Positions 30,341 to 64,000 of a stretch of 64,000 nucleotides of DNA are shown one piece after another. Position 1 is the stretch's first letter; every line of letters begins with the position of its first letter. The stretch lies in the IMG/VR virus record IMGVR_UViG_3300045988_153208. The stretch is one strand, 5' to 3'. The translations under genes and the position numbers were made by a program. The DNA comes from a virus. The notes below the pieces were generated by a model. It searched no databases. It was given only the letters and a program-made list of their open reading frames with translations, and had not been told where the DNA came from.

Positions 30341-30556
30341 TTAAACTTCTTTCCACTAATCTAATTCGTCTTCTGGAATAACTACATTTTGAACAAAGTC
30401 TTTTCCATTTTTAGTAAGACGTTTATTATTATCAGCAAGTAATTGAAGTTTTCTAACATAATATATATCTTCAAGATGAATGGGAGAAAGAATCGTTCCA
30501 TTAGTACCTAAATACTCATACATTACAATTTTAGTCATTTTCTTTTCTCCTTTCAT
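30341..30556 (-). CDS. Small protein (71 aa) translationally coupled to the giant tail protein
   Basis: Its ATG overlaps the TGA of the upstream giant gene (ATGA). The frame continues through TAG 30356 to TAA 30341-43. Confidence 0.45.
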
Positions 30557-33500
30557 GAATTAATATAATTAATTTTATTAAATCCTGAGAATAGTGAATT
30601 AGCAGCGTCTTGTTTCAAAGTAGTATACCAATCAACTGATTCTATAGTAATTGCAGACCAAGAGGCATAGTTAATAAAGGCTGGATCGCCAGATACGATA
30701 CGCAATTTAGATTTTTCTTCTGGTGTACCAATAATAATCTTTTTAATACCTAATGTTCTATCACTATTTAAATCACTATAGCTAGAGAAAGTAAAACCAC
30801 CATTATCAATCTTCTAAACATTAGAACCAATAGTTAAGGTATCATTATCTCCAGAGAATGTATTTTGGAATGCGCTTTGATTGATTACTGCAATTGTACC
30901 ACCAATACTTACATTAGAGAATTTTGGATATACTACACGAGATTGACAACCAGGCATTTTAAATGCATAGTCTCCAATCAATCTTAATCCTTCAGGGAAT
31001 TCTACCCACACTAAGTTCATTGAATGAGAGAAAGCGGCACCACAGAAAAATCTAATATTACATTTTTCAACATCATTTTCTTTATATTTTTCAAAGAATA
31101 CATGAGTTAAATTTTCACCATAGCAAACTGGAACATAAGTAACAGAATTTAAAGTAGAAGATTTTCCTGGGAATCCTGGATTACGAGGACTGTCAATATC
31201 TGTATCATAAATATCTCCAGGTGAACCGAATGTCGCATCAATAGCAATAACTTTTTTAGATACTCCATCTACATTAAAGAATGCTGGCACTGTAATCTTT
31301 CCTTTAACTTTTTTAGTCAAAGCTAAAGTCACGCCATCTGTAATATTCCACTTTGTCTCTCCTGCCCAGTCAGTATAGTAAGTATCTGCGGGAGTGAGAC
31401 CAGAGGTCTATTCAGAAACTGCAAAATACTCTGGATGAATATCTTCATATACATTAATAGGATTATTATCAAATACTGCATAAAATGTAGTATCCTCAGT
31501 AATCATATATTCTTCTAATTTCATAGCAGAGGAAGCAGTTGCAGAACGACTATATCCTAAGAATTTATAAGTTTGTTCTAGTGGTAAATCACTATCATCT
31601 TTCCAAGGAATAATCGTAGACATTACAGCGTAATTACCATGAGGAATTTTCTTTTCTTCAATTAATGTATTATCTTTATAATAATATTTAACACTCCATT
31701 TATGAATAGGACAAATTGCATAGAATATATAAGTATGGATACTAGAATCAAGAGTTTGTTCGCTCCACTTATTAATACTTTTATCAATATTAATAAGAAT
31801 ATCAGCACTAGCAGAATTAGTTAGTGCCCAACCATAGAAATCATGATTTGGTTTCTTCTCACTAACATCGCCAAATGCATCAATAGGATCTGCAAACCAA
31901 GTTTCGCCCTCTTTTAAAGTCATAGAACCAATTAATTGATAACGACCATCATTACCTTCATCTTCATCCATAATTACAAATCTAGCAGTATATCCCTGTT
32001 CAACATTCGCACAGAAGATTGTTAAATCAGGATAAGCAGCTTGGATAGTATTACGTAATTCAGATTCTTTAATAACTTCTGTATTATTAATATAAATAAT
32101 ACCAGAAATATCAGGAATATTTTTACTAGAATTTTTAATCCATTTCTTATCACTAATAAATTCTTTAAACATAGCTAAATCAGTAATTTGATTTATTTTA
32201 TCTTCTGGGATTGTTTCATCCTTACGATAAATTTCACCATTTTCAACTTTAATAGTCCATGCATCAAAATTAGTATAAGTGTAAGGTTCTAGTCCATAAT
32301 GTCCATTATCTATATAATAAGTAATAGATGGATTACGTTCATCATCAACAGTCATCTAAACATATGGACACCAATTCACATTGGTCATAGAAATTTGAGA
32401 AGTATTAGTCTATTGACTACGGATAGTATAATATTGTTTTAACAATTTATAACTATCATAGCCTAAGCCACCACCAGCAATATTTAGAGAAGCAATTACT
32501 GTATCACCCTTATCTCCAGTTGAGGTTTTATCAAAGAAACCTTGGAGGTATAAACCAGGATTAGCATGTAAATTACCTTCATCATCACGGGTAGGATTCT
32601 AATATTCATCTTCAGTAATTATATTCTTTAACAAATTAGCTTCAATTAATTCAAGATTTGTAATACTAGTAGGTAAATATACAGTATTTAATGCGACGCC
32701 TTTAGCAAACTAAACGTTAATTAAATTAGAACCAGTAGCACGGAAATCCTCTAATTTTTCACAACTAGTTAAATCTAATATAGGAGAAGCAGCATTAAAC
32801 TGAATATTACTCATATTTACTTCTTTTAATAAAGGCATACCTTTACTATCAGAAGAACTGGCAGGAATACTGAATTGGTTAACATTATCATTATGCCAAC
32901 GCTCTCCATTTGTATCTAAACCATCATATCCTAATTTCAAACTAGTTAATTTAGTAGCATCACCAGAAATTTCAAACTCTTGCCAATATAGATTACTCAT
33001 ATCGCCAAGGTCTTTCATTTGATTAATACCATAAACATATAGTAATTGTTCAGGATAATTTTCACTCTTACGGACACCATTTTCAATAGAGTCAATATTA
33101 AATCTTAATGCATGAACACCATCATATTTACGAGAAGGATAGGCTTCATTATCATCACCAAGAGTAACATAAGAAGAATGGGCTGGAGTTAATGTCATCC
33201 AATATTCAGCATCAAATAAATGATTTTTAGTCAAAGTGCTTTCATCCTTGAAATAAGGATCGCTAGCAGTTTCAATCCATTTATCTGAAGTCTTATTTTT
33301 ATTATTCGCAGCAACACGACCACGGATGCGGTTCGCACCACCACGTTGATAGTTACCTTCATTTAACCAAGAGTCAATATACTCTAAACGATTAGATAAG
33401 AATTGTTGACGAGATAGGCTTCTATTTCCTTGTAAAGCATAGAAATAAGTACCATTAGTATCAACAGTATATACACCAGTTGTATCACTGCTAATATGTC

Positions 33501-36500
33501 CAGTAGTACCATCTAAGTAAGAAGCATCATTTGTAATAGTGATATATTTATAATATTCATCTAAGTTAACTGCTACCAATGGACGAGTACCCAAGTCAGC
33601 TAAGTTATTTGTTGTATTATAATCAGTTAAATAATATGATTCAATACGATCAACAGTTTTTAAAGGTGGCTGTTTTAAATTAGAACCAAATACACTAGTA
33701 GTAATACCGCGTAAATGTCTGTATTTAGGAATAATTAAACCAGTTTTAAAGTATTTATAGAAGTTATTCCATAAAACACTATCAGAAGTAGAATAGTTAC
33801 CATCTTCAGTAGCATCAACATTGTATTCAAATGAAGGAATACCAGTATTATTAATACCTAATTGAGTATCAATATCATAGAAAATTGGATACCAAATATA
33901 GTCTCCGCCTTTCTTTTGAGGACCCCAAGAAGCCATCATACAGTTTTTACCACGAGAGTCATAACATTCAAAAATTTCTGTCATAACGAAATATGTAGCC
34001 ATATATTCTTTATCGAAGTGGTCACTTAATTCATAAGTAAATTTATCACCACGATACTCTTGTGTGTCATATTTATAAGAGCGATCACCATAAATAATAG
34101 TGGTTCCAATATAATATTTATTTGGCTCATAAGTTTCAGCAGTCACAGTAGCTTTAGTTACTGCTTTACCACATTTAGCGTTTCCATCATAATTATAATA
34201 TGTTTTACTTGCATCAAATGCTTCATCTTTACATAAAACAACTAATCTATCAGCCTTTGTATCTAACTCTTCATCGCTATAAGATTCCAAAGTATAATAA
34301 CGTTTATCGGGATTAAATGTATCAGTGCTATAACAAGGAACATAGGTAATATTATTATTTTTATCAATTTCACCAGTATATAATTTAGTTTTAATAGCAC
34401 TAAATAATACTGTTCCAACATAAGCAACGATATATTCATGACTATTTTCTTGATTAGGATTATAGTCAGGATTCTTTTTATAATAAGTAGTGCCTTCTAT
34501 ATATTCTTTAGCTAAGGTATAAATCTGTTCAGAAGTTGATGGATTAGTTGTCATAATATAATGTTTATTACTATCAAATAATTCTTCACCAACATCACAG
34601 ATTTTATAAGTACCATTTGATACAACTTTTTCAGTACAAGTACTCCAAACCCAAGCTACAGCGCGTTCCCAATTAGAATAATCTTTCAATAAATGCTGAG
34701 CGCGATTTTCTTGATTTAATGTAATATCATCCTTAGAAAATGTTAATGTTGGGTCTTTCTTACATTCTCCATCAGGAGCCATAATATAATCAAGAATATC
34801 TTCGTCATTATGATAACGATATTCAAATGAGTCTGCTACCACAGGGGCAGATTGAACTGCATTTAATACACGAGAACCATCAGCATTAAATACATCAAAT
34901 TTCAAATCTTTGCGGTCTTGTGGGTCACGATATGAGCAGAAGGTACGGCTATTGTTTTCAAACTCCCAACATTCTGCTACTTTAGGCATACTCTTAGTAC
35001 CATCGCCTATAAATTTAGCTTTTGGATCTTTACCAGTAGTGCTGTCAAGTGCGAATCCATATACTTCATCAGAACCTTTATCTAAAAGCATATTGTATAT
35101 ACCAATAAATTGATAAATAGGCTCTGTGCTACCATCGACTGGTTTCTTTTTATGGAATGCAAGTACACGGAACCCTCGTACAGAAGTACGATAATCATCA
35201 GTATTTTCAACCTTAAAATCGCTGTATCCAGGTTTCATAATATACCATTTATTATATTTAGGATTACTTGAATCAGCTACTTTTAATTTTGAATAAACAG
35301 TTGGATTTTCAGCCATTAATTTTTGATATAATGCGTATGGACCTAAATCAAAATCTTCTTTGCTGGTAATCACAATATTATCTTCTAAGACTTCATTACT
35401 TGCTGTTTTCGGATTACCCTTATGATTATAATAAGTATAAGTAGTTCCAGGAACATACTCAGTTGTTTCAGTCTCAACAGTTTTGTCAGGGTCTAAAACC
35501 TAAAATGCTTTTGCATTATTATAATCGTCTAATGGATGTTTAGAATAAGCATTTTTAACCATATTTGCAAATCCCATATTATAAGTTCCAGAAGATTCCA
35601 TGTAGTCAATCTTCATAGTAAATTTATGAGTTCCGCAAGTATAATTATTAAAATACCAATATTTTTGACGAGTTTTTTCATTGCCACGTTTTACGTAAGC
35701 AGTATTTTCAATATAAAAAGTATTAGGTTTATAAGGATTAGTTTCGCTAAATGTAACTTCCTTTTCACCATTTTCATCTTCATAATATTTAATTTTTAAT
35801 TGGCCAGTAGCAGAATCAACTAGAGGACCTAATGTTGTACTTAAAATATAAGGCTTCTAAGTAGAACCTAATACATCAGCATTATACTATTCTCTGAATG
35901 GCCCACGGTTTAAGAAAATGTTAACACGCTTTTCGCCATCTACCGCATCGTTATTTTTAGTTTTAACTTTATAATTTCTACGAGGATAGAATTCAGATGA
36001 AGTTCCTTGAACGCTCATTGATGCGCTATCACTAATAAATGAAGGACAATGATATTTATAATAAGTTTCAACAGCTTTTTGTTTTTCAGCTGCTGTCGCA
36101 CCATCACCAAATAATTTATCAGCTTTAGCTAATTCTTCCAATTTACCTTTATTATAATACATTTCAAGTGGAGTATTAACAAATTCAACTCCAACATTTA
36201 ATTTAACCTTTTTAGAATAAGGAAGTTTATTTTCACTATCTTCTAATTTAGTAGTATCAAAAATAATATAAGGCATTAATGGGGCATCAGGATGTTCATT
36301 ATTATACTTTATCATATTAGTATAGCTAAATTGGAATTCATCAATAGCAGTATTTTCTTCTGCTAATTTATTTTGATCGTAAATATTTACATTCTCAAAA
36401 TCAGCAGCATAATTCATGACAATATCATTAACGTTTAAATCAGTGCGATATACTCGGACCTTATATAAATCAATATCACAGTAATCACTGTTAAATTCAA

Positions 36501-38715
36501 TTTTATCATTTTCTACAACAAATCCATTTTCTTGAGTGTTTCTAACAACACTAGTTAGTACACCATTTAAATAAATATAAATTAAATTTTGAATTTTTTC
36601 TTTACTATATTTACATACAACAGATAAAGTAATAATTTTATTTTCTACATAAGATACGTTTACGGTATCAGTACCATTAGAGAAAAACGCATCCTGTGGT
36701 CCTAAACATAAACCAGTAACGGCTTTAGTATTACCAGAAGAGTAACTACCTATAACATTACTTAAATTAATTTGCTTAGCAATATGACTAAATTCTAAAT
36801 CATCATATTCCATTCTACGTTTATTACCATTTTTATCGACAAATTCAACTTCATAAGTTTTTAAATACCAAGCTAAAAATGCATCATAGTTGGTGTATGT
36901 AGTATTAAATTTGCCAGTTTCTTCATCATAAAATGCTTTATATAATTTTTCATCATTTTTATAACGAGTAATAGTACGAATTAAATTTGAATAATCCTAA
37001 ACATTACGAATTTTGAAAGTTAATTCAATACTATGAGACTGCTCAGTAGCTTGAGAGCCACTAGGATTTGAAAATACAGTGCGACCAATAGGAATAGATA
37101 ATTTAGCACCATTACTAATACGTAAACAAGTTTTATTATCTTCATCCGTAGTCCAACCATTATTATACCAATTAAAATTAGTAAAAGTCGCCGCACAAGG
37201 TTCAGCCCCTAGAGCTGTAGAAGAATTTACTAAAGTAGTGCGTTTAGCCAACGTTTCAGAATTAGAACGTCCACTACCTACTGTGTTTAATAAATAAGTT
37301 AAGAAGCCTTGCTTCTAAATACCAAAGTCTGTTCTTGTTGGGTCATTTACAACACGAATTTCAATTTTACGGGTAGTCTCACGCGCTCCATCACCACAAG
37401 TAATAGTGTAGTGATTAATTACATTTAATTCAGGATTAGCAATTTCAAAAATAGCAAATTTCTTAGAATCTGTAATTGTTTGAGGAGAATAAGAAAGTTC
37501 AATATTATTACGTTTAAAATGCACTACTGGGTTTTCAGCCTATGGGTCAAAAACACGGAAAGGAATTTGAATAGTGTCATAATTATAATATTCATCTTTA
37601 TAGTCTCCCAACCAAATAATTGGAGGAGCTTGAGGGTCTAAACCATCATAAACAGCTACTTCAAAAATTAAAGGGTCAACTTCAATTCCTTTTTTGCCAT
37701 TAATTGATTGGAATAAACGAATCCAAACTTTATGATAACCATTAACTACAGGGATATATTGTGAAACATTAACAGTCTATAATGTAGCCGAATTAGCGGC
37801 TAAAGATACACTTAAAAATGGTTCATCTTCATTGTCAAAATAATATTCAACAATTTTATCCATAGCGCCATTAACATTACATTGTAATACTAATTTACTA
37901 GGCTCGAAATAACTTAAATTAGAAAAACTACTTGATTCTTGTAATTCTAACTTAGAAGTTTTAAATGTTACTAAACGAGTAACTGTGCTTGGATGATTGG
38001 TTTGACTAGCCACTAATACTAATCTTGAAGAAGCATCGTCTTTAGCCAATTTACCAAATTCAAAAGCATATTTTTCGCCATCAGGCACTTGGAATGTTCC
38101 TGAATTATATTGGTTGTAATTGGTGCCATCATCAGTATATTCTAACTTCCAATTAATTGTTAGAATAGAGTCATAAGAATTACCCTTTTTATTTTTAGCT
38201 GATGTGGCGACAAATGTTATTTCTTGAGAACGTCCATTAATTAAGTTAACAGTAGGTAATGAGTCTACAGTTAATTCAATATCAGAAGCTAATGAGCTAG
38301 GGTCATCTCCTCCCCCTCCACCAGCAACAGTTAAACGACGACATAGCACATTTTGAAATGCTCGCTGAACTTTTATTACACGATAAAAACAATTATCACC
38401 TAAATTGATAATTAAATCATCTTCTTCGGGATACTCTCCGCCTTCAATAGCTCCGATTGGAATATTGATTTCATCTTCTAGTTTTTCAGCATCAGTCGGA
38501 GTATAATTGGCATAATAAATACCAGAATTACTTCCTGAGCCACCACCACTACCGCTTCCTAAAAGCTTTCGTGATACCATTGTACCATCAGCTTGAGTAT
38601 AGTCTATGAAAATTTTACCAGTATCAACTGCAAAATAAACATATCCATCATTAAAACCCATTAAATCTAATTTAGCTTCAGTACCACGAACAGGGATGAA
38701 TCGTTTATTGCTCAT
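30553..38715 (-). CDS. Giant multidomain tail fibre or baseplate protein (about 2720 aa)
   Basis: RBS AAAGGAG precedes ATG 38713-15. Track ORFs 37777-38715, 37315-37524, 36997-37251, 35887-36813, 32710-35373, 31408-32355 and 30814-31332 are all in one frame. Every gap was scanned and contains only TAG, no TAA or TGA. The first true stop is TGA 30553-55. The N-terminus carries the shared fibre anchor module and Gly/Ser linkers. Confidence 0.65.
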
Positions 38716-38856: not shown

Positions 38857-40500
38857 TTAGAAAGAACCCCAAACCAAATCAGCAGTAACAGTACTACCAG
38901 ATGCAGTTAGTTTTAAAGTATCAGATTTTAATACCATCTTTGCATTTTTATCAGATACTAAACTAGTTCCAGCTTGTAAAGTATGTGCTACAGTAACAGT
39001 GTTAGTAGCATCATCACGAGTAGCACTATCTGGACCGGGCTTATATTCTAAAGTCTGGATAGTTTTAGTATTAATACCAGTGATATGACCATTATCATAA
39101 GTGACAGAATCGATAACATCGAAAGTACCACCATTAGTTAATGATTTGCCATCAGTAGTTGATGTAGTATCATAAGTATCATGCTTGATAGTTACAGATA
39201 ATTGATTTGGTGCTGAACCACCATTATCAGTAGAATCAATAACAATGCCATCACCTTCGGTAAAAGCAATTTTACCAACTACTCCACCACCATTACTAGA
39301 AGTAATGGTCATGCTATCGGTTGCACCTGCAGCTTTAAAAATATAAGTAGTATCAATCTATGCATCATCGCCAGAAGGAACATAAGTCCATTCGACATCA
39401 CCAATAGCTAAAACACCATTGGTTTCAGATTTTTTATCTTTGGCAGTCGCAATTAATAAATCGCCAATACCAGCAGTTTTACCAGTAGCATAAGTTAAAT
39501 TGCCACCTTGAACTAAGAACATGTCGCCAATATGAATCTCAGCAGCAGTTCCACCCTTTAATACATTGAAACTTGCATCCATAGTAAAGGTAGTGCCACT
39601 AGTGCCAATAGTGCCACGATAAGTCATACCGTCAAGTTTATTAATTAACGCATCGACTTGGTCTTTAGAGTAAACAGGAAGGTCTACTTGTTTAGTATCG
39701 CTACCAATACCATAATAACTACCATCAACGAAATAACCTAACTTTTGTGTCTTTAAAAGACCAGTAGTTCCAGCAGTATCAGAAGCTCCTACTTGTAATT
39801 CACCATCATTGTTTAGACCTAAAATAATACCATTTAATTTAGTATCTTTAGATGCAATTTGAATACCATTACTTTTATCAATTTTAGTAACAGTTACATT
39901 GTCGCCGCCTTTGATGTGGACAGTGCTATCATCCTATAATGCGCTACCTAATACTAAATCAATATCATTAGTAGTATTAGCATCCTCTTGAACATTAAGA
40001 GTATAGGTATCACCAGTAATTGTGAGTGCTTTATTATTAGCCATGGCTACTTGAGCACCCTTAGCTCCAGTAATAGTTACATCAGCTGCGGTAATAGTTT
40101 TACCAGCATCACTATTAGTACCACCAGTAGTAATCTTAACACCCTTGTCAACTGAAGAAACAACTTGAGTTAGAGCAGTTAAAATAGTATCGTCATCAGG
40201 ATTGATTTGCGCCCAAGTAGTACCATTATAATATGCTAAAACATTTTCAGTTACACAATAAGCGATATCGCCTTTAGTAGATACCGTTGGTTTTGCCTTT
40301 AATTTACTTAAATTATCATAAATTTCAACACTTTTATTTAAAAGAGCCAGTTCATCAGCTTGACCAATATATAAACGACTACTATCAGAAGTTAAATAAA
40401 ATGTACCTACTTCCCAGCCCTTTTGAGAATCTTTTAATGTATTTAAACTCGCTTGAGTACCAAGTTTAAATTTTACAGCATTACCAGTATAATCAGCCAT
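38857..40500 (-). CDS. Tail fibre protein (547 aa) with the shared N-terminal anchor module
   Basis: RBS AAAAGGAG precedes the start. Track ORFs 39934-40500, 39358-39627 and 38857-39312 are in one frame joined by TAGs, ending at TAA 38857-59. Thr/Gly/Asp-rich beta-rich repeats are present. Confidence 0.6.
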
Positions 40501-45204: not shown

Positions 45205-45546
45205 TTAACTCCCCTCCTTTTCGTATAAAATATCTATTAATAAATAAGCATCTTGATTTTCATCTATATTAGTTAATGACATTTCATCAAAATTAATAGA
45301 TGTTACTACACCAGAGCCCTAAGTCATATCTAATTCATACAAACCAACTCCACCAATCATTATATAGTCTTGATTGGCATTAAGTCTAAATTTAGTACCT
45401 GGTAAACTTTGGATTCCTAATTTTATAATAGGAGTATAATCATCAAAAATTACTCCTGACATTAATTTAGCTTTAGTTATTGTTACTGGATAATTTTTTT
45501 CATTTAATTCACCAAAATATCGAAACTAAACAACACTTTTAGCCAT
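45205..45546 (-). CDS. Small structural or assembly protein (113 aa)
   Basis: RBS AGAGGAGACGGAG precedes ATG 45544-46. The frame has two in-frame TAGs and ends at TAA 45205-07. Confidence 0.45.
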
Positions 45547-54300: not shown

Positions 54301-55638
54301 ATTTAAATAAGAATTTACTCTATTCTATAAAATAATATTTAAATTTTTATATCCTTCAAATGAAGTAGCAATATATACTGTAGTATTCCATAAAAATTTA
54401 CTAAATAAATTATAATAATTTATTTCTTCTTTTTCTTTACCAATATTTTCTATAACAGAACCTAAATATTCTCCTAAATATAAATCAAATTCTTTTGATT
54501 CCATAATTAAAGACTCTAAAATACCAGTAGAAATACCACACATATCATTTAATAATGAAACATTATCTCGTAAATATATTCTATACTTTTCTAAAATATT
54601 GACAACAAATCCTGACTCCTAAATTCGATCAACCCATTCTTTAATTTGCGGGTTATCTGAACTATTTGTTCCTTGATAGAATCGTTTTAATTTTGTCATT
54701 AAATTTTTAGAATAATTATAATAAGTATTAATACGAGTCATTTCCTTAATAACATTTTCTTGACGAACTACTCGTTCAATACCATGAAAATTAACATTAA
54801 TACATCCACTATTTGGATGAGGTTCTGTTGTGATTGAAATACTTTTACTAGGGGCTAATAAAGTTTCTGCTGTTACTCTATACATTGGGCTTGATGCCAC
54901 ATATCCATTTAAAGTTGTAACAGTATAAACTAATTTATAAACTTCACTAGTTTTAATGAAACTACTTAAAACGACTGAATCAGTAGATATTCCATATTCA
55001 ATATCATTAGAATTATTATGTAATAATTCACCAGTAGTATAATATAATTCCCCTTCTTCTGTATAAAATGAAAAATTATAAGAATATACTTTTTCACTCT
55101 AATCAAAATCAGAAGATAATTCATACAAACCGAATAAATTATTATTAAATAAATTAATACTATCAATTGAATATCCTTTAACTGAAATTTTAGGCTCCTG
55201 AATACATTTAATAATACCAATAGTAGAATAGTATCCTGTTAACTTTTTAATAACATCAACTGTAATAGTTTCTTTCGTGTCAGGGTCTTCTTTTGTTTCA
55301 GTCTATGTATATTGTGAAATATAAGCTAATTGTACTTTGTAATACTAACCTTCATTTAATAAAGCTCCCTAAGAAGGAGGTATAGTAAATGTAACAGTAG
55401 AATTAGCAGTATTAAAATCCATTGATTCAATTGGATTAAATAAATAAGTATTTGTTGAAGCAGTTTTTAATCGCAAAACAAATCCAACAAATTCTTTATC
55501 ATTAACTGCGGCACTCGCAGTAAAAGGAATTGTAATCTAAATATCCTTTAATACTTTCGTGTCGCCTGTTTCAATATAACTCTTACAAAAAGCAGGTAAA
55601 GTACCTGCTATTACAGGAGGATATAATCTTTCAGGCAT
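48370..55638 (-). CDS. Giant tail-associated or baseplate hub-like protein (about 2422 aa), Tal-like by position
   Basis: RBS AAAGGAGAATG precedes ATG 55636-38. Track ORFs 54619-54900, 54325-54543, 53500-54090, 52960-53451, 52444-52857, 51934-52266, 50473-50679, 49327-49557 and 48640-48939 are all in frame. The regions 54901-55638 and 48370-48640 were scanned completely and 51121-51934 almost completely; only TAG interruptions were found. The first TAA/TGA is TGA 48370-72. Confidence 0.55.
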
Positions 55639-55664
55639 AGTCATTCTCCTTTACCACATAATTA

Positions 55665-58565
55665 TTATTTATTTTCTAATGCTTGGATACGTTTTACTAA
55701 ATTTGGAATCGTTGTTTGCTATAATGTAGTGAAACTTGTTTCCAAAGTTTTAACGCGTGATTCTAATGCAGCACATCTATCAATTAAAGTTTTAATAGCA
55801 GAATTTGAAGATAGATTGCATTGGACAGGGACTCCATTTAAAAAATATACTGGATTTTCAGAACTTCCAACATTTAATAAAGCTTCATGCTCAGCATCCA
55901 CCAAATTCTAAGCATTCTAAGCTGAAGTCGCAGTTTTTATCCAAGCTTCTCCCTAATCATTTATTTTAAATATATTCTTTTTATCATCAAAAGCGTATAA
56001 ACCATATTCTTCTAAATTATTATTATTTTTAAATGTACCCATTAGTACACCTTTAGTCTAATTACTATTTAATTGTCCTACTGTAGTAGAAATTAATTGT
56101 AAAGTTTCGTCATTAAAATCAATAACTGCCCCTTGTAAATCATTCCACATTGCAATAGGATAATTATTTTTAATCACTACAATAGGCTATATCCATACTA
56201 TTTTGTCTGTTTTATTCTATGCCTATACATAGAGACAAGTTGAATTATTATCTTGAGAGGAAAATACAGTAGGCGGAATAATTATATTATTTTCAAATTT
56301 CCACTATGTTAAAATTTTGTTCTCATCATTTTTAATATTATTCTGCAAGCTCCAATTTAAATTTTCAGATACAGTTTCAAACCCATCCATTTCAGTTGTA
56401 TATTTAAAAATTTGATAATTAGTTTTTTCATATACCGGTTTTTTACCAGTAATATCATAAGTTATTATAGAGCATCCATCAGCACAAACATATTCTGGAT
56501 TAAATGTAGTAGGAATACTAATATATCCCTCTAAATTATTATTATTATAAGTTCCTTTTACTTTAACGACTAATTTTGATAAAAGATTAATATCAGATTC
56601 TGTTAATGCTTCATGAATTTTAATAATATTATCCACTAATGAAATCTTATCAGAATTTAAAGAATTATAATACCATTCATAAGTTAATTCAATATCAGAA
56701 CGTCCTTGCCAAGTATAATCATATAAATTAGCAACTATTCGATACTCCTTATCTTGAGAAATAGGACAAATAACTTTACAATCTTTATACTAATCTTTAA
56801 TTTTTTCTTGTAATGATAATTGAAGCACACAATTAGCCCCAGAAGAGCCGCTATTACCAAATAATAATTCAATTGAACTGGTGTATATCTAATTATTAAT
56901 TTCAATTTCACATTTAATTGTATTATTTCTAAAAAGTGGATTATATAAAGAGTTAATTCTAAAAGGTATATAATATATTTTAGTTGTAGGATTTAAATAG
57001 TCATACATAGGAGCAGTATTTTTATCAGTATTTAATATATGCTCAAACTCATACTCATCATGCTTATTTATCTTTCCATTTTCCACTGGAATAATCATTG
57101 TTTTTTTAGAAGGTAGCATATATCGTAATCGAACACCGTTTGTCAATGTTGTAGTCTTACTAGTATCTTTGCTATTAAATTCTACCGCAATATAATGGAT
57201 TTTTTCTCCATCAGAACGAGCTAATAATTGGTTATCTTGTCCATATATATAAAATGTATTATTGTTATTATTCGTAAATAAATTTAAACCAGCTAATAAA
57301 CCAATATCTGGATTATATAATGTATTTGTATAAGAACATGACTAAGAATATCCTAAAACTTCTCTTGTTCCTATTTTACCTTTAAAATAAATCCTATATG
57401 ATTGAGTAAAAATCTAATCTCCTAAACGAAGAGAGGTAGAAATTGTATTACCCGCAAGAATAGGAATCTCATCATAGCTGCCATCTGCTCTTACACCTAA
57501 GCGCCACCAACCTTGACCAAATACCGAACTGTTTTCAGTTACATCTTTATCATAAGAATATAACCATATTTCTGCCCCAGTAAATGTAGCCAAAGTCCCC
57601 GAAGTCATATCTATAACTCTAAACCCCATTGCAACCTTACGCTTTTCTTCATCTTGAGAGGGAGTGAACTAATATCTATTGCTACCTCTTGGATATAAAT
57701 AAACGCCAATATTACTATCAGTTGTAATATCTGAAAAATTACTTTTATAATATCCTAAATATAAATTTATATTTTTAAAAACAATTGAAAAAGAATCTGA
57801 ACTATCAATTTTATTATTATCACTATCGTAAAAATTGCCATTTTCCCATAATTCAATTTGGATATCATTAATAATTAAATTAGTAACATCTATATCAAAA
57901 TATTGAGAAGTATAACCTCCTGTTTTATATGCACTTAAAAATAACATATCTTTATTAGAGGATATTGTTGTGATCTGTCGAGTAAATGTTTTTAATTCTT
58001 TTGTGGTCTAATCTTTTCCACTTAATATAATACGGATACCATAAGTACCTTTATTTAAAGTTTTTGTACCATTATATAAATCAGCCATTAAATTATAAGA
58101 AATACGTAAAGTTGTATATCCTACTAATTCATTATTATTTATATAACTTTGAGGGCCCATAATAGTTTTACTAGATTCTCGGCCTTCAGAACTAGGAATT
58201 AACACAATTTCTTTATTTTGATTAAAAAGCTAATTGGCTGCATAAAAAGTTTTAGAATCATCTTTACCAATTACTTCATAATCACTAATTACGCGTCCAG
58301 TAATTAATTTTTTACCAGAAAAATTACCTTGTGGAATTAATACATAAACTTCTTCATTAAGAGCATAAGATTTATCTTTTTCATTAACAAAAACTGTTAA
58401 TTTAGCTCCTTTATAATTTACAATATATTTCTATGCCCCCTCAGAACTTTCAGGGACACTTTCTATTATTCCAACTATTGTCTAATCAAAAGGTAAATTC
58501 TATAATCGAGCAGATACAATTGTGTCTACTGATCGGAATATTTTTTCATTTAATTCATTAGACAT
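55665..58565 (-). CDS. Large tail protein immediately after the tape measure (about 966 aa), Dit-like by position
   Basis: RBS AAAAGGAGAG precedes ATG 58563-65. Track ORFs 58008-58205, 57669-57947, 57414-57629, 56889-57146, 56304-56636 and 55719-55904 are all in one frame joined by TAGs. The gene ends at TAA 55665-67. Confidence 0.5.
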
Positions 58566-58645
58566 AATTCGCTCTCCTTTTTCTCATATTCTAATAAATT
58601 TTGAGAAAAAATCTTATTTTATTATTTATATTTGACCAATAAAAA

Positions 58646-58673: not shown

Positions 58674-58677
58674 TAAA

Positions 58678-61600
58678 TTAAACAGTCTTTCGACTTGCAT
58701 ATTGACTTGCTTCATTCTCCATCATTTCAAATGCTTCCATAATTTCATTACTATCAGTCACATTCGGGAAATCAGCATTAATAGAAACTTGCTGCATAAA
58801 TTCTTGTGCAATTCTATCAACCCCAAGAGAAGAAGGAATAAGATTAGATAAATAACTCACAATAGTCTAAACATTTAGCCCTATATTTTGTAATATAGTA
58901 GAAATATCTAAACTATCCATTAAAGCAGTATCAATGTTTAATTCATTATTACTCATCCAATCTTCAATTTGTTTATTCATATCTAATTGATCTAACATAT
59001 CTAAATAAGAGAATTGAGAAATATAATCTGGCACTTCAACTGTTTTATTAAAACTCTCAGAATTGTGCTAAGTACTAATTATATTATTTGCTGTTGCAGT
59101 TGAACGAGAATCAATGGCATTTTCATATTTACCATAATCAATACTATTCATTCCAGATAAAGCCGCCATCATTTCATTCATAGTTTTTACTAAAGCTTCA
59201 TTCCGCTTAATCGCACTATCAATTTTAAAAACATAAATAGATTCCCAATCACTCGCTGCTTTAATAACACCATTAAATGATTCTGTGGCATTTTTAACAA
59301 TTTTTTCCATATCTGCTACAGCTTTATCTGATTCACCAGTAATTTTAATCGACCATCCAGAAGCTGCATCAGCAAAACTTCCTTCAATACCTGCTGTACT
59401 ATTAATTTCTTTAATTTTATTTAAATAATCATCAAGTAATTTATTAGAATCAGCAACATAATTATCATGGCTTTTCCAAAATGCGTTAAACATTTCATCT
59501 AATGTAGAATATCCTGTTTTTAATGCCAAAGTAGTCTGATCAAAACTATCAACTAATGCGCCAGAACTATCTTTATAATATGCTACAAATTTTTCATTAG
59601 CATCTTTACTATTTTTAAATACTTCTTCATATTGCTAATGAATCTATTGCATACGTTCATCATAATATTTTTCTAAATCAGCAGCCTATTTCTCGTATTC
59701 AGCTTGAGAAATTTCTCCTTGAGTAAATGATAGCTTTATCGCTGTTAACTTTTCTTGATAGTCAGATTGTAATTGAAGAATATTATTTTCTAATGTTTTT
59801 AAATATTCTTCATTAGCTTTTTGATAAGCATTTAATTTATCTTCATATTCTTGTTCAGCTTCAGCTATTTTATCTTCATTAGCACTATATACATATCCCC
59901 AATTACCATTATTATCACGGGTTAAACGAACAGTTTCATTAGAATTTTGAACATCTTCCAATTTCTATCTTGCTAACTCTAATTCATATTTAGATTGTAA
60001 AATCTTTAAATCATATTCACTAATTTTAGAACCATCTTTTAATTTTTTATTTAACTCATCTTGTAATTTATTTAATGCTTGTTTATGAGGAATAATATTA
60101 GTATCATCAATAGAACCTTCAATCTGACGTCTTAATTTATTTAATTCATAAGTTTTATCAGCATCACTTAAATACTAATCATTTAATTCATTGGCCCTAG
60201 TAATAGCATCTTGCAAAGCTTCAATAGAACCATAAATTGGAGATATACCGTCTTCAAATTCTTTGACAATATTATCCATTTCTTCTTCAAAGATATCGCG
60301 TGCTCTTTCTAAAGCTTCTTGCCAAGTATCTAAGAAATTTTCTTCAGCACTATGGACTTGCTCATCGATTTCTTTTAAACTATCACTCCATTGTTTAATC
60401 CCAATTGAATCTCCATTGGCAACAGCTTTATCATATTGCTCTTGAGCATTAGCACGCATTTGTTTTAATGTCTCTACTTGCTATTTAGCTCCGGCAAGAT
60501 TATTAATACTATTGTTCATTAATGAACGATTTAAATTACGCAATACTAGTTTTGATTGCTCATTTAATTGAGCCCCTAATAATGAAGTAATATCTTTAAC
60601 ACCTTCAAGAATATTTTGATAATGTTCAAATAAATCAATTTGGTCTTGAACATCCTCACTAAATTGATTAAAACTATCAAGGACTTTTTCTTGAATGGTC
60701 GCTCTCATTTCAAGTAATTCTTGATTAGCTTCTAAAATACTAGAACGCCATTCTCGAATTTGATCAATTTCATCTTCAGTGAAATTCTTAGCTTTTAAAT
60801 CATCAACTGTTAATTTGTCAAGCTCTTCAATAGAATTAATACCATGATTATTCAATAATTCCAGCAAACCATCAGAATAAGTTTTAGTTTTTTCTAAGGC
60901 ATTTTCTGCTTTTTCACCAATTAAAGCAATAGCCTCAGCCGCAGAATAAGCATCATCTTCAATTTTACTTAATAAATAATCAAGATATTCCAATTCATCA
61001 TCTTTAACAGCAATTTTAATTTCAATTTTATACTAAGTCTTTTCAAAAATTACATCAGCTAATTCAGTTTGTAAATCATATAATTTTTCCAATTCATCTT
61101 GGCGCAGATTATTAGTTTCTTCATACTATTCTAAAGCTTCAATAAAATCATCATAAGCTTCTTCAGCTGCATTATCAGCATCTTCATTTTTACCAATAGA
61201 TGAATTGTATTTATCAATCTGGCGCTTCATAATTTCATCATAATTAGTAATAACACCAGTTTCATCAAATTCAGCACCATAAGATGCAATTAAAGCTTTA
61301 TCTTCATCCCAATATTTATTAATTTCATCAAGATATTGATTCTATAAATCAATCATTTCATCATATTTCTCAATTTCTTGATCCATTAATTCTAATTTAG
61401 AAGTACCAAATGCTCGCTCTTTAGCTTTTGCTAAATGCTCCATTACTTCTTCTAAATCTTCAATTTTTTGCTTAATTACATGATAACGCTCAATTTCATC
61501 TTTATATTCTTTTGGAGGAGGAGGAGTATATGAACTTCCACCACCACCATTTCCACCTCCGCCATTATTGTTAGTGGCAGTGGGATTAGTAGTTAAATCA

Positions 61601-64000
61601 GTTGTTTTCCCACCATACTCTTTACCCGACCAATCAAGAGTTTTAACTGTTGGCACATTAACCATAGTCGTAGTATCAATAGGAACAACAGATGGAGGAT
61701 CTAAATGATGTCCATGTTCATCAATATTACTAGTATAAACAACTGCTTCTTCGTGTGAAGTAACAGGAGTTGGTTCACTTTCAATTTCTGCATCAAATCC
61801 CATACTAGCAACAAAAGCTTGAGCTTGTTCTGCAGTAAAACCAAAGGCTGAAATCAATGTATTTAAAGAAGCAATTGCTTCAGTTGTATCAAATTTTGGA
61901 TCAAGCTATAATCCATTCGCAGCCTCTTGTATCTAAGTAAAACAAGTATTAATTTCTAACTAAACGCTACTTAAAGAATCTCCAAAAGCTGCTTTTAAAT
62001 CATCTCTACCACTATTAGCTATATTTTGTAAAACTTGATTTACCTATTCCCCAGTTGTATAAAATGAACGCTAAGTTGCAATATTTAATTCCGCTAATGC
62101 TTTTTGGTTACCTTTTGCTACATCGGGCATTAATTTAGCAACTTTACGAGCATATCTTTTATCTTCTTTGTATAATTTTTCAAATGTATCTTTAGATACT
62201 CCAGCTAAATCTGATAAAGCATCAGAATTCTATGCAACAAATTCATCAAAAGCTGCTTCATTTTCTGCATTATATTTTTTAGTAAGACTGGTAGAGTCAT
62301 TCATCCAATCTGAAAATGCTTTTACTTTATCATTACATTTATCCCAAGAACCAGCTAATTCATCAACTAGTTCTTGTCCATGAGTGCCTAATGAGCCCAT
62401 TTCATCTCGTAATTCATTAATCGCTCCAGAATCACCTTCAACAGCCTGTTGTAATTTTCCAAAATTCTCTGTTAAATTATTAGCATCTCCAGCCCAAGCC
62501 TTAAAATCATCTTCAGACATACCGAATATATCAGCGAATGATTCAGAATTACTCGTCAAAAATTCTTGTAATTTTCCAATTTCAGAGGGTAAAGCACTAC
62601 CCTATCCCATATTTTCTAAAGCAGAAGCTTGTTCCTAAATTTTATCTTCATCAAAATTCTATTCATCCCAAGAAGGCTTTAATCGGCTAGCAGCATCAAA
62701 AGCTTTTTGGCTATAAATTTGCTCATCAAAATAATTATCTTGCTAACTCAATCCCCATTGACGAGACTACTCTGCCGCGAAATTCTTCAATATAGTATCA
62801 TAATCAAAAGTAACTTCAGAATTTTCAACAGTTCCGCCATTTTCATCAGTCAATTTTACTGGTATTGTTGTATTACCGCTAGTAAAATCTTGTAACCAAT
62901 TATCTCCTAATTCACTTACTGAATATCCTTGCTATGATAATAGATTTAAAATTTCAGATTCAGTTAATTCATTACCACTATTACTACCACGCGATGCAAT
63001 TATTTTATTTTCATAATCTATAACATCTTGACTAATTAATTCTCCAATACCATTTCGATATTTTTCATCATATCCTGATAAATCTAGTCCTCGTGAAAGT
63101 AATTCATTTAAAACATCATTCTAATAAGAATCAGCTAATCTACTTGTTTCAGCAGTCAATTTTTCTAATGCTTCTCTAGTTTCGTGATTTGAAGTAATTA
63201 ATTTAGCTGTATTTTCATCTAAACCTGCTTTATTTATTAAGTCTTCTTTACTAAAATCAAAACTAGAATCTTTCATAGCAGCTTTAACTACTTTATTTAT
63301 TTCTGATGTTGTTAATGTGTCAGTCGCATTAACAGTATGATAACGATATTCATTAGGTCTAAACTGATATTTTTCTCGCTTTGTTCCTACAACTATGTTT
63401 TCATTTTTCTTTGAAATTTCTCTAGTTTTTGCTTCCAGCTATAACTATTCATCTCTATTGTTCTAAGAATTAACAGCTGTTTGAGCTTTATTCTATTTAT
63501 CAAGAGCCTGCTATTTAATCTTATTCCAACCAGATTCAGTTAAATGCTAAATATTATTAACATCATAATACCAGTCTTCACCTTTTTTAAGTTGAGAATC
63601 AGCATCTGCCATTTTATTATAATTATCAATTAAATCTTGAACTTCATTATTTACATCATATAAAGCTTCTCGCCATTCAGTAGTGCCATATTTTAAATCT
63701 TTAAAAGCATCATATTTACTTGATAAACCATCTAGAGATGAAGTTACTTTCTATACTTCAGAATTAACATTATCTAAATTACTTTGTAGTATTTGTAAAT
63801 CTTCATTAGATTGTTTAAGTTCAGTATTAAAAGATTGAGAACGTTTAACTAATGTATAAATAGCAAATCCAACAGCCGCAATTATTGCAGCAATTAATAT
63901 AAATTTAGCAATTAACGGTAATAAACTTACCTGAACCCCTTTTAAAGCGATATTTAATTCTTGAGTCGCTGCAGTTAATCCTTTAGTTGCTAAAGTATTA
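58678..64000 (-). CDS. Tail tape measure protein, C-terminal about 1770 aa (the 5' end lies beyond the window)
   Basis: Track ORFs 62230-62559, 61342-61857, 60481-60993, 60175-60459, 59686-59961, 59068-59529 and 58678-58860 are all in frame. The gaps 59962-60174 and 60460-60480 were checked and contain TAG only. The sequence is highly alpha-helical, coiled-coil and Glu/Lys/Ala-rich with a Gly-rich GGGGNGGGG stretch. It ends at TAA 58678-80. Confidence 0.7.

What the first reader, a model, noticed from the sequence alone, without database searches (positions are those of the whole stretch)
30553..64000. Exceptionally large tail module: three contiguous giant reading frames (at least 1770, 2422 and 2720 aa) plus 966-, 936- and 1208-aa proteins
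After merging TAG-split pieces, about 36 kb of the minus strand encode only about 15 proteins. These include a tape measure of at least 1770 aa, which implies a very long tail, and two proteins over 2400 aa.

The frames were verified by scanning inter-ORF gaps for TAA and TGA. None were found until TGA 48370-72 and TGA 30553-55.

Giant baseplate and fibre proteins of this size suggest an unusually elaborate adsorption apparatus.
Basis: seen in the sequence. Interest (0 to 1): 0.6.

Follow-up and report, generated by a model that had tools for sequence, protein, structure and literature searches.

The report
Giant tail genes, TAG-recoded gut phage
This is the tail-building gene block of a large (at least 186 kb) gut bacteriophage that reads the TAG stop codon as glutamine. 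Its huge genes are real, including a tail ruler of about 2,780 residues and a 2,720-residue fibre-like protein with a CotH kinase-like domain, but they belong to phage and protein groups already reported from metagenomes.

Summary
With TAG read as sense, the minus strand from 22.5 to 64 kb carries 13 genes without a single internal TAA or TGA. Nine of them lie in 30553-64000, with products of >=1773, 966, 2422, 936, 113, 1208, 312, 547 and 2720 aa.

At the window's TAG sites, homologues carry ordinary Gln codons six times more often than background. Independent assemblies encode the same full-length proteins at 92-97% identity.

The >=1773-aa frame is the C-terminal two-thirds of a tape measure protein that is 2757-2784 aa in close relatives. 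That predicts a tail of roughly 400 nm, probably non-contractile.

The 2422-aa protein has three FN3-like domains, a conserved beta-rich core, and a lineage-specific extension of about 1,500 aa that looks like coiled coil.

No Dit or Tal signature was found in any of these proteins. The nearest known phages are the phAss-1 / Enterococcus EF1 group. The nearest known proteins are the CotH-containing ~2,000-aa targets of phage diversity-generating retroelements.

Verdict: real, and a new member of a known kind; moderate interest.

The parts
58678..64000 (-). gA: C-terminal ~1773 aa of the tail tape measure protein; the N-terminal ~1000 aa lie beyond the window. 31 in-frame TAG. Hydrophobic segment at 63847-63924.
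   Evidence: Tape-measure PHROGs at E 1e-10 to 5e-6. Full-length homologues are 2757-2784 aa in L007/L008/L010/L011. The N-terminal 1069 aa of the L008 homologue hit tape-measure PHROGs at 3e-44. phmmer against the Enterococcus phage VRE9_2 tape measure gives 1e-19.
55665..58565 (-). gB: 966-aa protein in the position directly after the tape measure (the usual Dit position). 19 TAG. C-terminal coiled-coil-like tail. Function not established.
   Evidence: Shine-Dalgarno site plus ATG. Homologues of 926-972 aa sit in the same position in relatives. Residues 1-97 are 35% identical to the N-terminus of a 2156-aa phAss-1 protein; that this protein follows the phAss-1 tape measure is my inference from coordinates and the published 3149-aa length, since the tape measure lies outside locus L014. 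No Pfam, PHROG or NCBIfam hit.
48370..55638 (-). gC: 2422-aa giant protein with 41 TAG. In gC numbering from the first ATG at 55644 (subtract 2 for the preferred 2422-aa start): three FN3-like beta-sandwich domains (aa 1-300; 54745-55644), a helical insertion (aa ~310-495), a conserved beta-rich core (aa ~495-885; 52990-54162), and a lineage-specific, coiled-coil-like extension (aa ~886-2424; 48373-52989).
45563..48373 (-). gD: 936-aa conserved tail protein with 19 TAG. Its start overlaps the gC stop (ATGA).
   Evidence: phrog_32343 at 4e-35 and phrog_1887 'tail protein' at 2.5e-11. More than 1953 homologous clusters. Homologues in phAss-1, MT835469 and Enterococcus phages. No PDB sequence or SPP1 Dit/Tal similarity.
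45205..45546 (-). gE: 113-aa protein, conserved with gD in relatives.
   Evidence: Homologues of 109-113 aa lie directly after the gD homologue in L003-L006 (38-100% identity); in L018 a 113-aa gene occupies the same slot (no sequence comparison made). No family hit.
41578..45204 (-). gF: 1208-aa protein with a TTG start and 19 TAG. A variable slot: present only in the closest relatives and replaced by a 1755-aa DUF6273 protein in L018.
   Evidence: Start assignment. Homologues only in L003/L004, at 93%. L018 gene order. No family hit.
40528..41466 (-). gG: 312-aa fibre-like protein.
   Evidence: N-terminal motif loosely shared with gH, gI and gM. phrog_24103 and phrog_35541, both of unknown function.
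38857..40500 (-). gH: 547-aa Thr/Gly-rich fibre-like protein.
   Evidence: Shared N-terminal motif. The C-terminal half is 26% identical to a 561-aa protein of L005.
30553..38715 (-). gI: 2720-aa giant appendage protein with 13 TAG. Fibre-like N-terminus; a beta-rich region (aa ~130-800); a CotH-type atypical kinase fold with large insertions (aa ~880-1850; 33166-36078), carrying invariant motifs VQGTSSEFYPRRNYK (35968-36012), KIDYMESSG (35587-35613), YDSRGKN (33943-33963) and YDIDTQLG (33856-33879); LRR-like repeats at aa ~1900-2100 (my reading of the sequence, not a tool result); and a C-terminal BspA-type LRR (aa ~2480-2700; 30616-31278).
28294..30228 (-). gJ: 644-aa protein, paralogous to gK over ~135 aa.
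   Evidence: blastp of gJ against gK: 35% identity, E 3e-18. phrog_25888, unknown function.
27656..28264 (-). gK: 202-aa paralogue of the gJ N-terminal region.
26655..27548 (-). gL: 297-aa protein whose C-terminal 147 aa are 57% identical to the C-terminus of gM.
   Evidence: blastp E 3.5e-53. Matching DNA repeats D1-D3 and D7.
22531..25683 (-). gM: 1050-aa tail-fibre-like protein with 8 TAG; the last gene of the minus-strand block.
   Evidence: Shared N-terminal motif. phrog_21765, unknown function. Hairpin terminator at 22464-22519 downstream.

Best explanation
The region is the tail, tail-tip and host-recognition module of a large (at least 186 kb) lytic-type gut phage that decodes TAG as glutamine.

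Proposed mechanism, with each step marked as shown or inferred:
1. Decoding (partly shown). The late genes can only be translated once TAG is suppressed. That TAG is sense is shown. The suppressor itself was not found in the window.
2. Tail length (inferred). gA, about 2,780 aa when complete, sets tail length during assembly. At roughly 1.5 Å per residue this predicts a tail of about 400 nm. The 1.5 Å rule is established knowledge from lambda and mycobacteriophages; applying it here is inference.
3. Tail type (inferred). The tail is probably non-contractile. No sheath gene was seen in the 7 kb upstream of the tape measure in relatives. The 358-aa, TAG-free phrog_2729 protein that I take to be the tube protein (assignment not established) looks too large to sit under a sheath.
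4. Tail tip (inferred from gene position and conservation only). gB, gC, gD, gE and gF build the tail tip. gD and the gC core are the widely conserved parts. The 1,500-aa coiled-coil-like extension of gC is a lineage-specific addition, perhaps a long central fibre or a lumen-filling protein.
5. Host recognition (domains shown, role inferred). gG, gH, gI and gM are several different fibre-type proteins that attach to the tip and bind the host surface. gI combines a BspA-type LRR binding module with a highly conserved CotH-type kinase-fold domain. Whether that domain phosphorylates something at the cell surface or acts only as a binding or structural module is unknown.
For: Reality of the frames and the code:
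- Stop-free frames.
- At 367 aligned TAG sites, homologues have canonical Gln 16.9% of the time against 2.7% background, and TAG 21% against 1.8%.
- The Pfam DnaB_C match runs through an in-frame TAG.
- Shine-Dalgarno sites lie before nearly all starts.
- Full-length homologues at 92-97% identity come from other assemblies, in clusters of 508-754 member sequences.

Tape measure.

Synteny:
- Relatives from IMG/VR, and a Hadza gut contig, keep the order tape measure, ~930-970 aa, ~2300-2400 aa, ~880-940 aa, 113 aa.
- The PHROG order upstream of the tape measure is shared with Enterococcus phage VRE9_2, whose annotation has no sheath.

gI domains.

gC domains.

Context: a replication module on the opposite strand, and the source contig of 186,118 bp.

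Literature: TAG-recoded gut phages with 3149-aa tape measures (PMC10607447), and late-gene recoding (bioRxiv 10.1101/2021.08.26.457843).
Against: - No suppressor tRNA in the window or in 13 related loci. The rest of the genome was not examined.
- No Dit, Tal, baseplate, peptidase or lysozyme family was detected in gB-gF, so their structural roles rest on position alone.
- GenBank labels list the related phages EF1 and EF5 as Myoviridae (PMC6435515), so a contractile tail is not excluded.
- Pfam CotH does not hit gI itself.
- There is no residue-level alignment of gI to the CotH active site.
- No virion proteomics or microscopy exists for this lineage.
Confidence: 0.82

Rival explanations
1. 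The genome uses the standard code. On this reading the TAG-split pieces are real short genes or decayed pseudogenes, and the long frames are an artefact of ignoring TAG.
For: Under table 11 the region does give many ORFs of 200-930 aa. No suppressor tRNA was found in the window.
Against: - P of about 1e-76 for a 2720-codon frame free of TAA and TGA.
- Homology runs collinearly across the TAGs for full length.
- TAG sites align with Gln in homologues.
- Shine-Dalgarno sites occur only at the merged-gene starts.
- A standard-code relative (MT835469, 0 TAG) encodes uninterrupted homologues: a 963-aa protein matching the gC core and a 785-aa match to gD.
Confidence: 0.01
2. The module belongs to a contractile-tailed (myovirus-type) phage. 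gD, gE and gF would then be hub, wedge and gp6-like baseplate proteins, and the giants would be baseplate-attached.
For: - The related Enterococcus phages EF1 and EF5 carry a 'Myoviridae' database label (PMC6435515).
- The order large protein, ~113-aa protein, large protein resembles hub, gp25-like, gp6-like orders. This is a recollection, not a test.
- Baseplate proteins over 1000 aa occur in Herelleviridae (my own knowledge).
Against: - No sheath-annotated gene lies between the head genes and the tape measure in VRE9_2, nor in the 7 kb upstream in L008.
- gE has no GPW_gp25 hit.
- A tape measure of ~2,780 aa implies a tail of about 400 nm, which is typical of non-contractile tails.
- The phAss-1 authors read the long tape measure as siphovirus-type (PMC10607447).
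Confidence: 0.15
3. One or both giants (gC especially) are not external adsorption parts. They would instead be internal or ejected proteins: a second ruler-like or lumen-filling protein, or a channel-forming protein delivered into the host envelope.
For: - The gC extension resembles only coiled-coil and tape-measure-like proteins.
- It is encoded right after the tape measure and gB.
- Its length varies greatly between lineages, from 617 to 2945 aa, as the length of a tail-related ruler might.
Against: - Three N-terminal FN3-like domains are typical of exposed phage surface or fibre proteins. The best phage hit is the T1 tail-tip fibre.
- No transmembrane segment was noted in gC (I did not run a formal prediction).
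Confidence: 0.2
4. The CotH-like domain of gI is a catalytically dead scaffold or binding module, as fungal CotH invasins are, and not a working kinase.
For: - Pfam CotH does not hit gI directly.
- Identity to B. cereus CotH is only 10%.
- The domain carries very large insertions.
- The extracellular location of a tail fibre offers little ATP (inference).
Against: - Conservation is extreme. The YDSRGKN and YDxDTQLG motifs are invariant across 43 family members of 45-95% identity to the query segment. Their core residues (D-x-R-x-K-N and Y-D-x-D-T-x-L-G) stay invariant in 22 more distant members (23-36% identity to the reference member).
- The motifs have the D-x4-N and DxD pattern and the spacing expected of a kinase catalytic loop and metal-binding site. 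In B. subtilis CotH the catalytic residues D228 and D251 lie 23 residues apart (PMC7821199).
Confidence: 0.5

Closest known systems
phAss-1 / proposed Phassvirus and the wider group that includes Enterococcus phages EF1, EF5, VRE9_1-4 and H1 (PMC10607447; GenBank OQ749652, MF001358, PP680568)
   Same: - Human-gut origin; phAss-1 also uses TAG as Gln.
- A very long tape measure: 3149 aa in phAss-1, 2673 aa in VRE9_2.
- Giant proteins next to it: 2156 and 1880 aa in phAss-1, 2533 aa in VRE9_2.
- Homologues of gD and of the gC core.
- The same PHROG series upstream of the tape measure.
- A replication module with DnaB, RecJ, an SF1 helicase and PolIII-alpha.
   Different: - No nucleotide-level similarity.
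- Only 22-38% protein identity.
- gB, gE, gF and gI have no detectable counterpart in VRE9_2.
- The gC core and gD lie after the lysis genes in VRE9_2 but directly after gB here.
- The genome is larger: 186 kb against 134-142 kb.
- The Enterococcus phages use the standard code.
'Agate' clade of alternatively coded phages (Borges et al., bioRxiv 10.1101/2021.08.26.457843)
   Same: TAG recoding concentrated in structural genes, a genome of about 154 ± 27 kb, and a bidirectional GC-skew pattern. The window shows a skew switch near 21 kb.
   Different: Membership could not be tested, because no Agate sequence was available to the tools.
Very long (~2,000-2,300 aa) phage-encoded DGR target proteins with CotH and Laminin_G_3 motifs (category f1, PMC5758913; PC_00012, bioRxiv 10.1101/2020.04.01.020958; also noted in PMC8008677)
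   Same: - A giant phage protein with a central CotH-like kinase domain.
- gI aa 1544-1804 matches proteins of Bacteroides phage p00 ('hankyphage', by my recollection) at 25% identity and 1e-10, and Bacillus phage G gp353 at 1e-17.
- The function is uncharacterised in both cases.
   Different: - gI ends in a BspA-type LRR, not a hypervariable C-type-lectin region.
- Neither a reverse transcriptase nor a template/variable repeat pair was seen in the parts of the window examined.
- gI is 400-700 aa longer.
Bacillus CotH spore-coat protein kinase (PDB 5JDA; Pfam PF08757)
   Different: - 10% identity, and no direct Pfam hit.
- The domain is embedded in a 2720-aa virion-type protein, with an insertion of about 500 aa between the lobes.
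- The substrate and any activity are unknown.
Canonical tape measure, Dit, Tal tail-tip cassette of Gram-positive siphophages (SPP1 gp18, gp19.1, gp21)
   Same: Gene order: a tape measure followed by several large tip proteins and then fibre-like proteins, all on one strand.
   Different: There is no Sipho_tail or Prophage_tail Pfam hit, and hhalign probability against SPP1 Dit and Tal is below 1%. The proteins are 3-10 times larger.

Membership tests
Tail tape measure protein | Sequence match to curated tape-measure profiles | tested here: met
   The window part hits 4 tape-measure PHROGs at 1e-10 to 5e-6. The N-terminus of the 85%-identical homologue hits 10 tape-measure PHROGs, the best at 3e-44.
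Tail tape measure protein | Position between the tube/chaperone genes and the tail-tip genes | tested here: met
   In L008, L010 and VRE9_2 the gene follows phrog_2729 (a virion structural protein) and small proteins, and precedes gB-like and tail proteins.
Tail tape measure protein | Protein length sets tail length | not testable with these tools
   Needs microscopy of a virion. The prediction is about 415 nm from 2757-2784 aa.
Genetic code 15 (TAG = Gln) phage | In-frame TAG inside conserved genes, with homology continuing across it | tested here: met
Genetic code 15 (TAG = Gln) phage | TAG positions correspond to Gln in homologues | tested here: met
   Canonical Gln at 16.9% of 367 aligned sites against 2.7% background; the next most frequent residues are Lys and Glu.
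Genetic code 15 (TAG = Gln) phage | Phage-encoded suppressor tRNA(CUA) | tested here: inconclusive
   None in the 64-kb window or in 13 related loci. About 122 kb of the source contig was not available.
Dit (Sipho_tail, PF05709) | Profile or fold match in the gene after the tape measure | tested here: not met
Tal / gp27-like hub (Prophage_tail, PF06605) | Profile match in a large tip protein | tested here: not met
   No Pfam hit for gB, gC, gD or gF. hhalign against SPP1 gp21 gives probability below 1%. gD hits only 'tail protein' phrog_1887.
CotH kinase family (PF08757) | Direct Pfam match | tested here: not met
   No CotH hit on gI whole or in segments, even at a permissive E threshold of 10.
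CotH kinase family (PF08757) | CotH fold | tested here: met
CotH kinase family (PF08757) | Sequence continuity with recognised CotH proteins | tested here: met
   10 of 22 distant proteins retrieved with the gI C-lobe profile (E 1e-35 or better) hit PF08757, the best at 3e-7.
CotH kinase family (PF08757) | Catalytic Asp and metal-binding Asp/Asn present | tested here: inconclusive
   Invariant YDSRGKN (aa 1585-1591) and YDIDTQLG (aa 1613-1620) fit the pattern. No residue-level superposition on CotH D228/D251 was available.
CotH kinase family (PF08757) | Kinase activity | not testable with these tools
   Needs biochemistry.
BspA-type leucine-rich repeat (PF13306) | Profile match at the C-terminus | tested here: met
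   gI scores 24.5 bits (E 2.7e-5, just under the 27.7-bit cut-off). Most homologues carry PF13306. The family profile hits PDB BspA-like LRR proteins at 3.5e-22.
DGR target protein | C-terminal C-type-lectin variable region, with a reverse transcriptase and template repeat nearby | tested here: not met
   The C-terminus is an LRR. No reverse transcriptase was found among the window proteins scanned with Pfam. The repeat search of 22-31 kb shows only paralogous gene segments. The rest of the genome was not examined.
Contractile-tailed (myovirus-type) phage | Tail sheath gene upstream of the tube and tape measure | tested here: not met
   The eight genes in the 7 kb upstream in L008 have no sheath PHROG. 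The VRE9_2 annotation from portal to tape measure has none. Weak point: several of these PHROGs are of unknown function.
Proposed genus Phassvirus | At least ~70% genome nucleotide identity to phAss-1 | tested here: not met
   No megablast match for 19 kb of the module in 50,697 phage records, which include OQ749652. Only 28% protein identity in gD.

The most novel reading that the evidence does not exclude
The giant gI family (more than 1,200 clusters at 50% identity) would be a virion-borne enzyme-adhesin. In this reading a tail appendage docks on the host through its BspA-type LRR. It then uses an active CotH-type kinase to phosphorylate a host surface, cell-wall or (after ejection) intracellular target as part of adsorption or takeover. 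That would be an enzymatic step in phage entry that has not been described.

A second, independent novel reading concerns gC. Its 1,500-aa coiled-coil extension could be a second length-determining or lumen-filling component of an ultra-long tail.
Probability: 0.15. Interest if true: 0.75.

Novelty: new member of a known kind. Interest (0 to 1): 0.35.

Why it matters
It confirms that standard-code annotation shreds about 40 kb of real structural genes in this phage lineage, and that code-15 translation recovers them.

It adds a 186-kb member to the poorly studied group of gut phages with tape measures of 2,700-3,150 aa, and so with predicted tails of about 400 nm.

It links a very large, unannotated family of ~2,000-2,900-aa proteins to the CotH kinase fold, by structure and by transitive sequence evidence. 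The family has 1,240 clusters at 50% identity and is often found on 100-250 kb contigs. In this member the kinase fold is paired with an LRR binding module, not with a DGR-diversified lectin.

That gives a concrete domain (gI aa ~880-1850) and concrete residues (D1586, N1591, D1614, D1616) for testing whether phage appendages carry kinase activity. This question was raised but left open in the DGR literature.

None of this overturns current understanding.

Tried and rejected
- crAss-like virion RNA polymerase or cargo proteins were my first suspicion for giant TAG-recoded ORFs. I rejected this: the block starts with a tape measure, and the replication genes and relatives point to the EF1/phAss-1 group.
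- Pfam, NCBIfam, PHROGs and PDB sequence searches of gB, gC, gD, gE and gF, whole and in segments, gave nothing functional beyond 'tail protein' and unknown PHROGs.
- Fold searches of the gC N-terminal model were swamped by FN3 hits, so the conserved core (aa 495-885) stays unassigned.
- hhalign against SPP1 Dit and Tal was negative.
- A search for the exact window end in IMG/VR found no match.
- A suppressor tRNA search was negative.
- I considered an invertible tail-fibre segment around gL, the plus-strand ORF and gM. I rejected it: only a local 38-nt palindrome and hairpin terminators are present, with no long inverted repeats flanking a segment.
- A literature search for morphology of EF1, VRE9 or PMBT10 found only a database label.

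Full report
**1. The observation**

The window has 29.8% G+C. When only TAA and TGA are treated as stops, the minus strand from 22.5 kb to the window end resolves into 13 long genes.

| Gene | Coordinates | Product |
|---|---|---|
| gA | 58678-63999 | >=1773 aa, open at the window edge |
| gB | 55665-58565 | 966 aa |
| gC | 48370-55638 | 2422 aa |
| gD | 45563-48373 | 936 aa |
| gE | 45205-45546 | 113 aa |
| gF | 41578-45204 | 1208 aa |
| gG | 40528-41466 | 312 aa |
| gH | 38857-40500 | 547 aa |
| gI | 30553-38715 | 2720 aa |
| gJ | 28294-30228 | 644 aa |
| gK | 27656-28264 | 202 aa |
| gL | 26655-27548 | 297 aa |
| gM | 22531-25683 | 1050 aa |

Under the standard code the longest piece in this region is 929 aa.

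- For gC, the Shine-Dalgarno spacing and the start of homologue P0001 favour the second ATG, giving 2422 aa.
- For gF, the start is TTG at 45204, preceded by GGAGGGGAG. The three differences from relative L003 in the 81-nt extension are all synonymous third positions.

A frame of 2720 codons free of TAA and TGA has a chance probability of about 1e-76 on this strand. The two other frames of the same genes each contain 100-450 such stops.

**2. TAG is a sense codon, most likely Gln**

- At 367 aligned positions where the window has in-frame TAG, homologues from related contigs have an ordinary CAA or CAG Gln in 16.9% of cases, against a background of 2.7%. They have TAG in 21%, against 1.8%. Lys and Glu come next.
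- Homology is collinear across all the TAGs. Full-length proteins of 92-97% identity occur in independent assemblies, in clusters of 508-754 member sequences. This also rules out assembly error.
- Even on the other strand, the DnaB_C Pfam match (residues 207-472) runs through a TAG at codon 397.
- TAG supplies 33% of Gln codons in the late block and 10% in the replication block. PolIII-alpha, NrdD and the primase have none. This matches the pattern described for alternatively coded phages (bioRxiv 10.1101/2021.08.26.457843).
- No tRNA is present in the window or in 13 related loci, so the suppressor must lie elsewhere in the genome or be supplied otherwise.

**3. Source and relatives**

The TAG-free PolIII-alpha is found exactly on ENA contig ERZ27261223 k119_14822, which is 186,118 bp. 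There is no near-identical DNA in 50,697 deposited phage genomes.

IMG/VR holds relatives of 101-198 kb with 52-96% protein identity. A 199.5-kb Hadza gut contig has the same gene order.

More distant relatives have 22-38% identity in gD and the gC core:
- phage phAss-1 (TAG-recoded, 136 kb, tape measure of 3149 aa; PMC10607447);
- an unverified 176-kb human-faecal phage, MT835469;
- the cultured standard-code Enterococcus phages EF1, EF5, H1 and VRE9_1-4.

The plus-strand replication module of the window comprises DnaB, a primase, a RecJ-like protein, an SF1 helicase, PolIII-alpha, a guanylate kinase, NrdD/NrdG and a dUTPase. It shares several gene types with VRE9_2.

**4. The tape measure**

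gA hits four tape-measure PHROGs. In relatives the complete protein is 2757-2784 aa with 56-63 TAGs.

The N-terminal 1069 aa of the 85%-identical L008 copy hit ten tape-measure PHROGs, the best at 3e-44. So the window holds the C-terminal two-thirds.

At about 1.5 Å per residue (established for lambda and mycobacteriophages; my own knowledge) the predicted tail is about 415 nm.

Upstream in L008 lie eight genes. They include a TAG-free 358-aa phrog_2729 virion protein, which I take to be the tube protein, and a 174-aa protein. None matches a sheath family.

The pharokka-annotated VRE9_2 genome has the same PHROG series from portal to tape measure, with no sheath. I therefore favour a non-contractile tail, with confidence of about 0.7. 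The only contrary evidence is a database label of 'Myoviridae' for EF1 and EF5 (PMC6435515).

**5. The 2422-aa protein (gC)**

No library profile hits the whole protein. Forty-six homologous clusters of 1389-2945 aa exist, none carrying a Pfam domain.

An AlphaFold model of residues 1-1000 of the 92%-identical P0001 (pLDDT 78) shows:
- a helical insertion at aa ~310-495;
- a beta-rich core at aa ~495-885.

The core and the N-terminal domains are what is shared with the 617-1880-aa homologues of VRE9_2, MT835469, L005/L006 and phAss-1.

The remaining ~1,500 aa are specific to the close lineage and have the lowest G+C in the window (23-25%). At profile level they resemble only long coiled-coil proteins such as SMC, Spc110 and a tape measure.

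The role of gC is not established. From position and the FN3 content I infer a tail-tip protein with a long fibrous extension. An internal, ruler-like role is a live rival.

**6. gB, gD, gE, gF**

- gD belongs to a very large family of more than 1,953 clusters. It hits phrog_32343 and the 'tail protein' phrog_1887, and overlaps the gC stop by ATGA.
- gE (113 aa) travels with gD in relatives.
- gB sits in the post-tape-measure position. Its first 97 residues resemble the N-terminus of a 2156-aa phAss-1 protein that, judged from coordinates and the published 3149-aa length, follows the phAss-1 tape measure (PMC10607447).
- gF is present only in the closest relatives. A 1755-aa DUF6273 protein replaces it in the Hadza contig.
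- None of these shows Dit, Tal, gp25-like, peptidase or lysozyme signatures. hhalign of the gC and gD families against SPP1 Dit and Tal gives probabilities below 1%.

**7. The 2720-aa protein (gI)**

It has at least 155 homologous clusters of 2039-2871 aa, most carrying Pfam LRR_5 at the C-terminus.

Pfam CotH does not hit gI directly. A profile of the C-lobe region finds 1,240 clusters at 50% identity, mostly giants of 2,000-2,960 aa. Ten of 22 distant members do hit PF08757, the best at 3e-7. So fold and transitive sequence evidence agree.

The motifs YDSRGKN (aa 1585-1591) and YDIDTQLG (aa 1613-1620) are invariant across the close family. Their core residues remain invariant in the distant set.

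Their D-x4-N ... D pattern fits a kinase catalytic loop and metal site. For comparison, B. subtilis CotH has catalytic D228 and D251 (PMC7821199). No residue-level superposition could be made, so catalytic competence is open.

The C-terminus is a BspA-type LRR. The family profile hits PDB LRR surface proteins at 3.5e-22.

The N-termini of gG, gH, gI and gM share a loose motif. It recalls tail-fibre anchor sequences, but that is a recollection and was not tested.

**8. Prior art for gI**

Very long (~2,000-2,300 aa) phage proteins with CotH-like and Laminin_G_3 motifs are already known as targets of diversity-generating retroelements. They are uncharacterised (PMC5758913; bioRxiv 10.1101/2020.04.01.020958; PMC8008677).

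gI matches proteins of Bacteroides phage p00 and Bacillus phage G gp353 over aa ~1544-2026. It differs in ending with an LRR rather than a hypervariable lectin, and in having no DGR nearby in the window.

**9. Mosaic signal**

TAG density and G+C split the late block in two.
- gA-gF have 16-20 TAG per 1000 codons and 25-30% G+C.
- gG-gJ have 1.6-4.8 per 1000 and 31-35% G+C. Within gI, a 929-codon stretch has no TAG at all.
- gK, gL and gM are intermediate, at 7.6-13.5 TAG per 1000 codons and 32-34% G+C.

This fits more recent acquisition of the distal receptor-binding genes from standard-code phages. That reading is an inference.

**10. Verdict**

The assignment of the giants to 'baseplate and fibre' is only partly backed.

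The module is a new member of a known kind, namely large TAG-recoded gut phages with ultra-long tape measures. It includes a non-DGR member of the known but unstudied CotH-containing giant phage protein family.

Interest is moderate (0.35). The most novel reading not excluded is an active virion-borne kinase-adhesin (probability about 0.15).

Noticed in passing
window 22531-64000, minus strand: TAG use and G+C fall into two main tiers inside the late block. gA-gF have 16-20 TAG per 1000 codons and 25-30% G+C. gG-gJ have 1.6-4.8 per 1000 and 31-35% G+C, and gK-gM are intermediate. This suggests the distal fibre genes, including the 2720-aa gene, were acquired more recently from standard-code phages.
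   Followed up: partly
window 25684-26654: A plus-strand ORF (25844-26614; 256 aa, 4 TAG) with a fibre-like N-terminus sits inside the minus-strand block between gM and gL. A 38-nt, 92% palindrome (25727-25822) lies in the divergent intergenic region. A bidirectional hairpin terminator lies at 26608-26664. No evidence for an invertible segment.
   Followed up: partly
window 26655-27095 and 22531-22978: The C-terminal 147 aa of gL are 57% identical to the C-terminus of gM. This looks like a duplicated C-terminal module, perhaps an assembly or chaperone domain or an alternative receptor-binding tip. It has no family hit.
   Followed up: partly
window 27656-30228: gK (202 aa) is a paralogue of the N-terminal region of gJ (644 aa), at 35% identity. 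Both hit phrog_25888, which has no known function.
   Followed up: no
window 7006-7836, plus strand: A TAG-free 276-aa protein with a hydrophobic, signal-peptide-like N-terminus (my reading of the sequence) and a Phage_lysozyme2 ('phage tail lysozyme') domain is encoded in the middle of the replication module, not with the tail genes.
   Followed up: no
window 1098-2630, plus strand: The DnaB-like helicase needs read-through of one TAG at codon 397. The DnaB_C Pfam match spans residues 207-472. So recoding is not confined to late genes, although PolIII-alpha, NrdD and the primase have no TAG at all.
   Followed up: partly
window ~20000-22500: Plus-strand and minus-strand gene blocks converge here, and the cumulative GC skew peaks near 21 kb. 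That is consistent with a replication terminus, or with strand-biased transcription in a bidirectionally replicating genome. Several small ORFs in this stretch are unassigned.
   Followed up: no
window 48370-48373: The gD start codon overlaps the gC stop codon (ATGA), which suggests translational coupling of the 2422-aa and 936-aa proteins.
   Followed up: no
L018 20017-25284 (Hadza gut contig, 199.5 kb): In a 41%-identical relative, the slot occupied by gF (1208 aa) holds a 1755-aa protein with Pfam DUF6273. The position after the 113-aa gene is therefore a variable cassette.
   Followed up: no
L015 25056-32657 (Enterococcus phage VRE9_2): A cultured, standard-code Enterococcus phage has an unannotated 2533-aa protein (phrog_33923) two genes after its 2673-aa tape measure. 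It has no detectable similarity to gC, gF or gI. Giant tip-region proteins seem to have arisen more than once in this group.
   Followed up: partly
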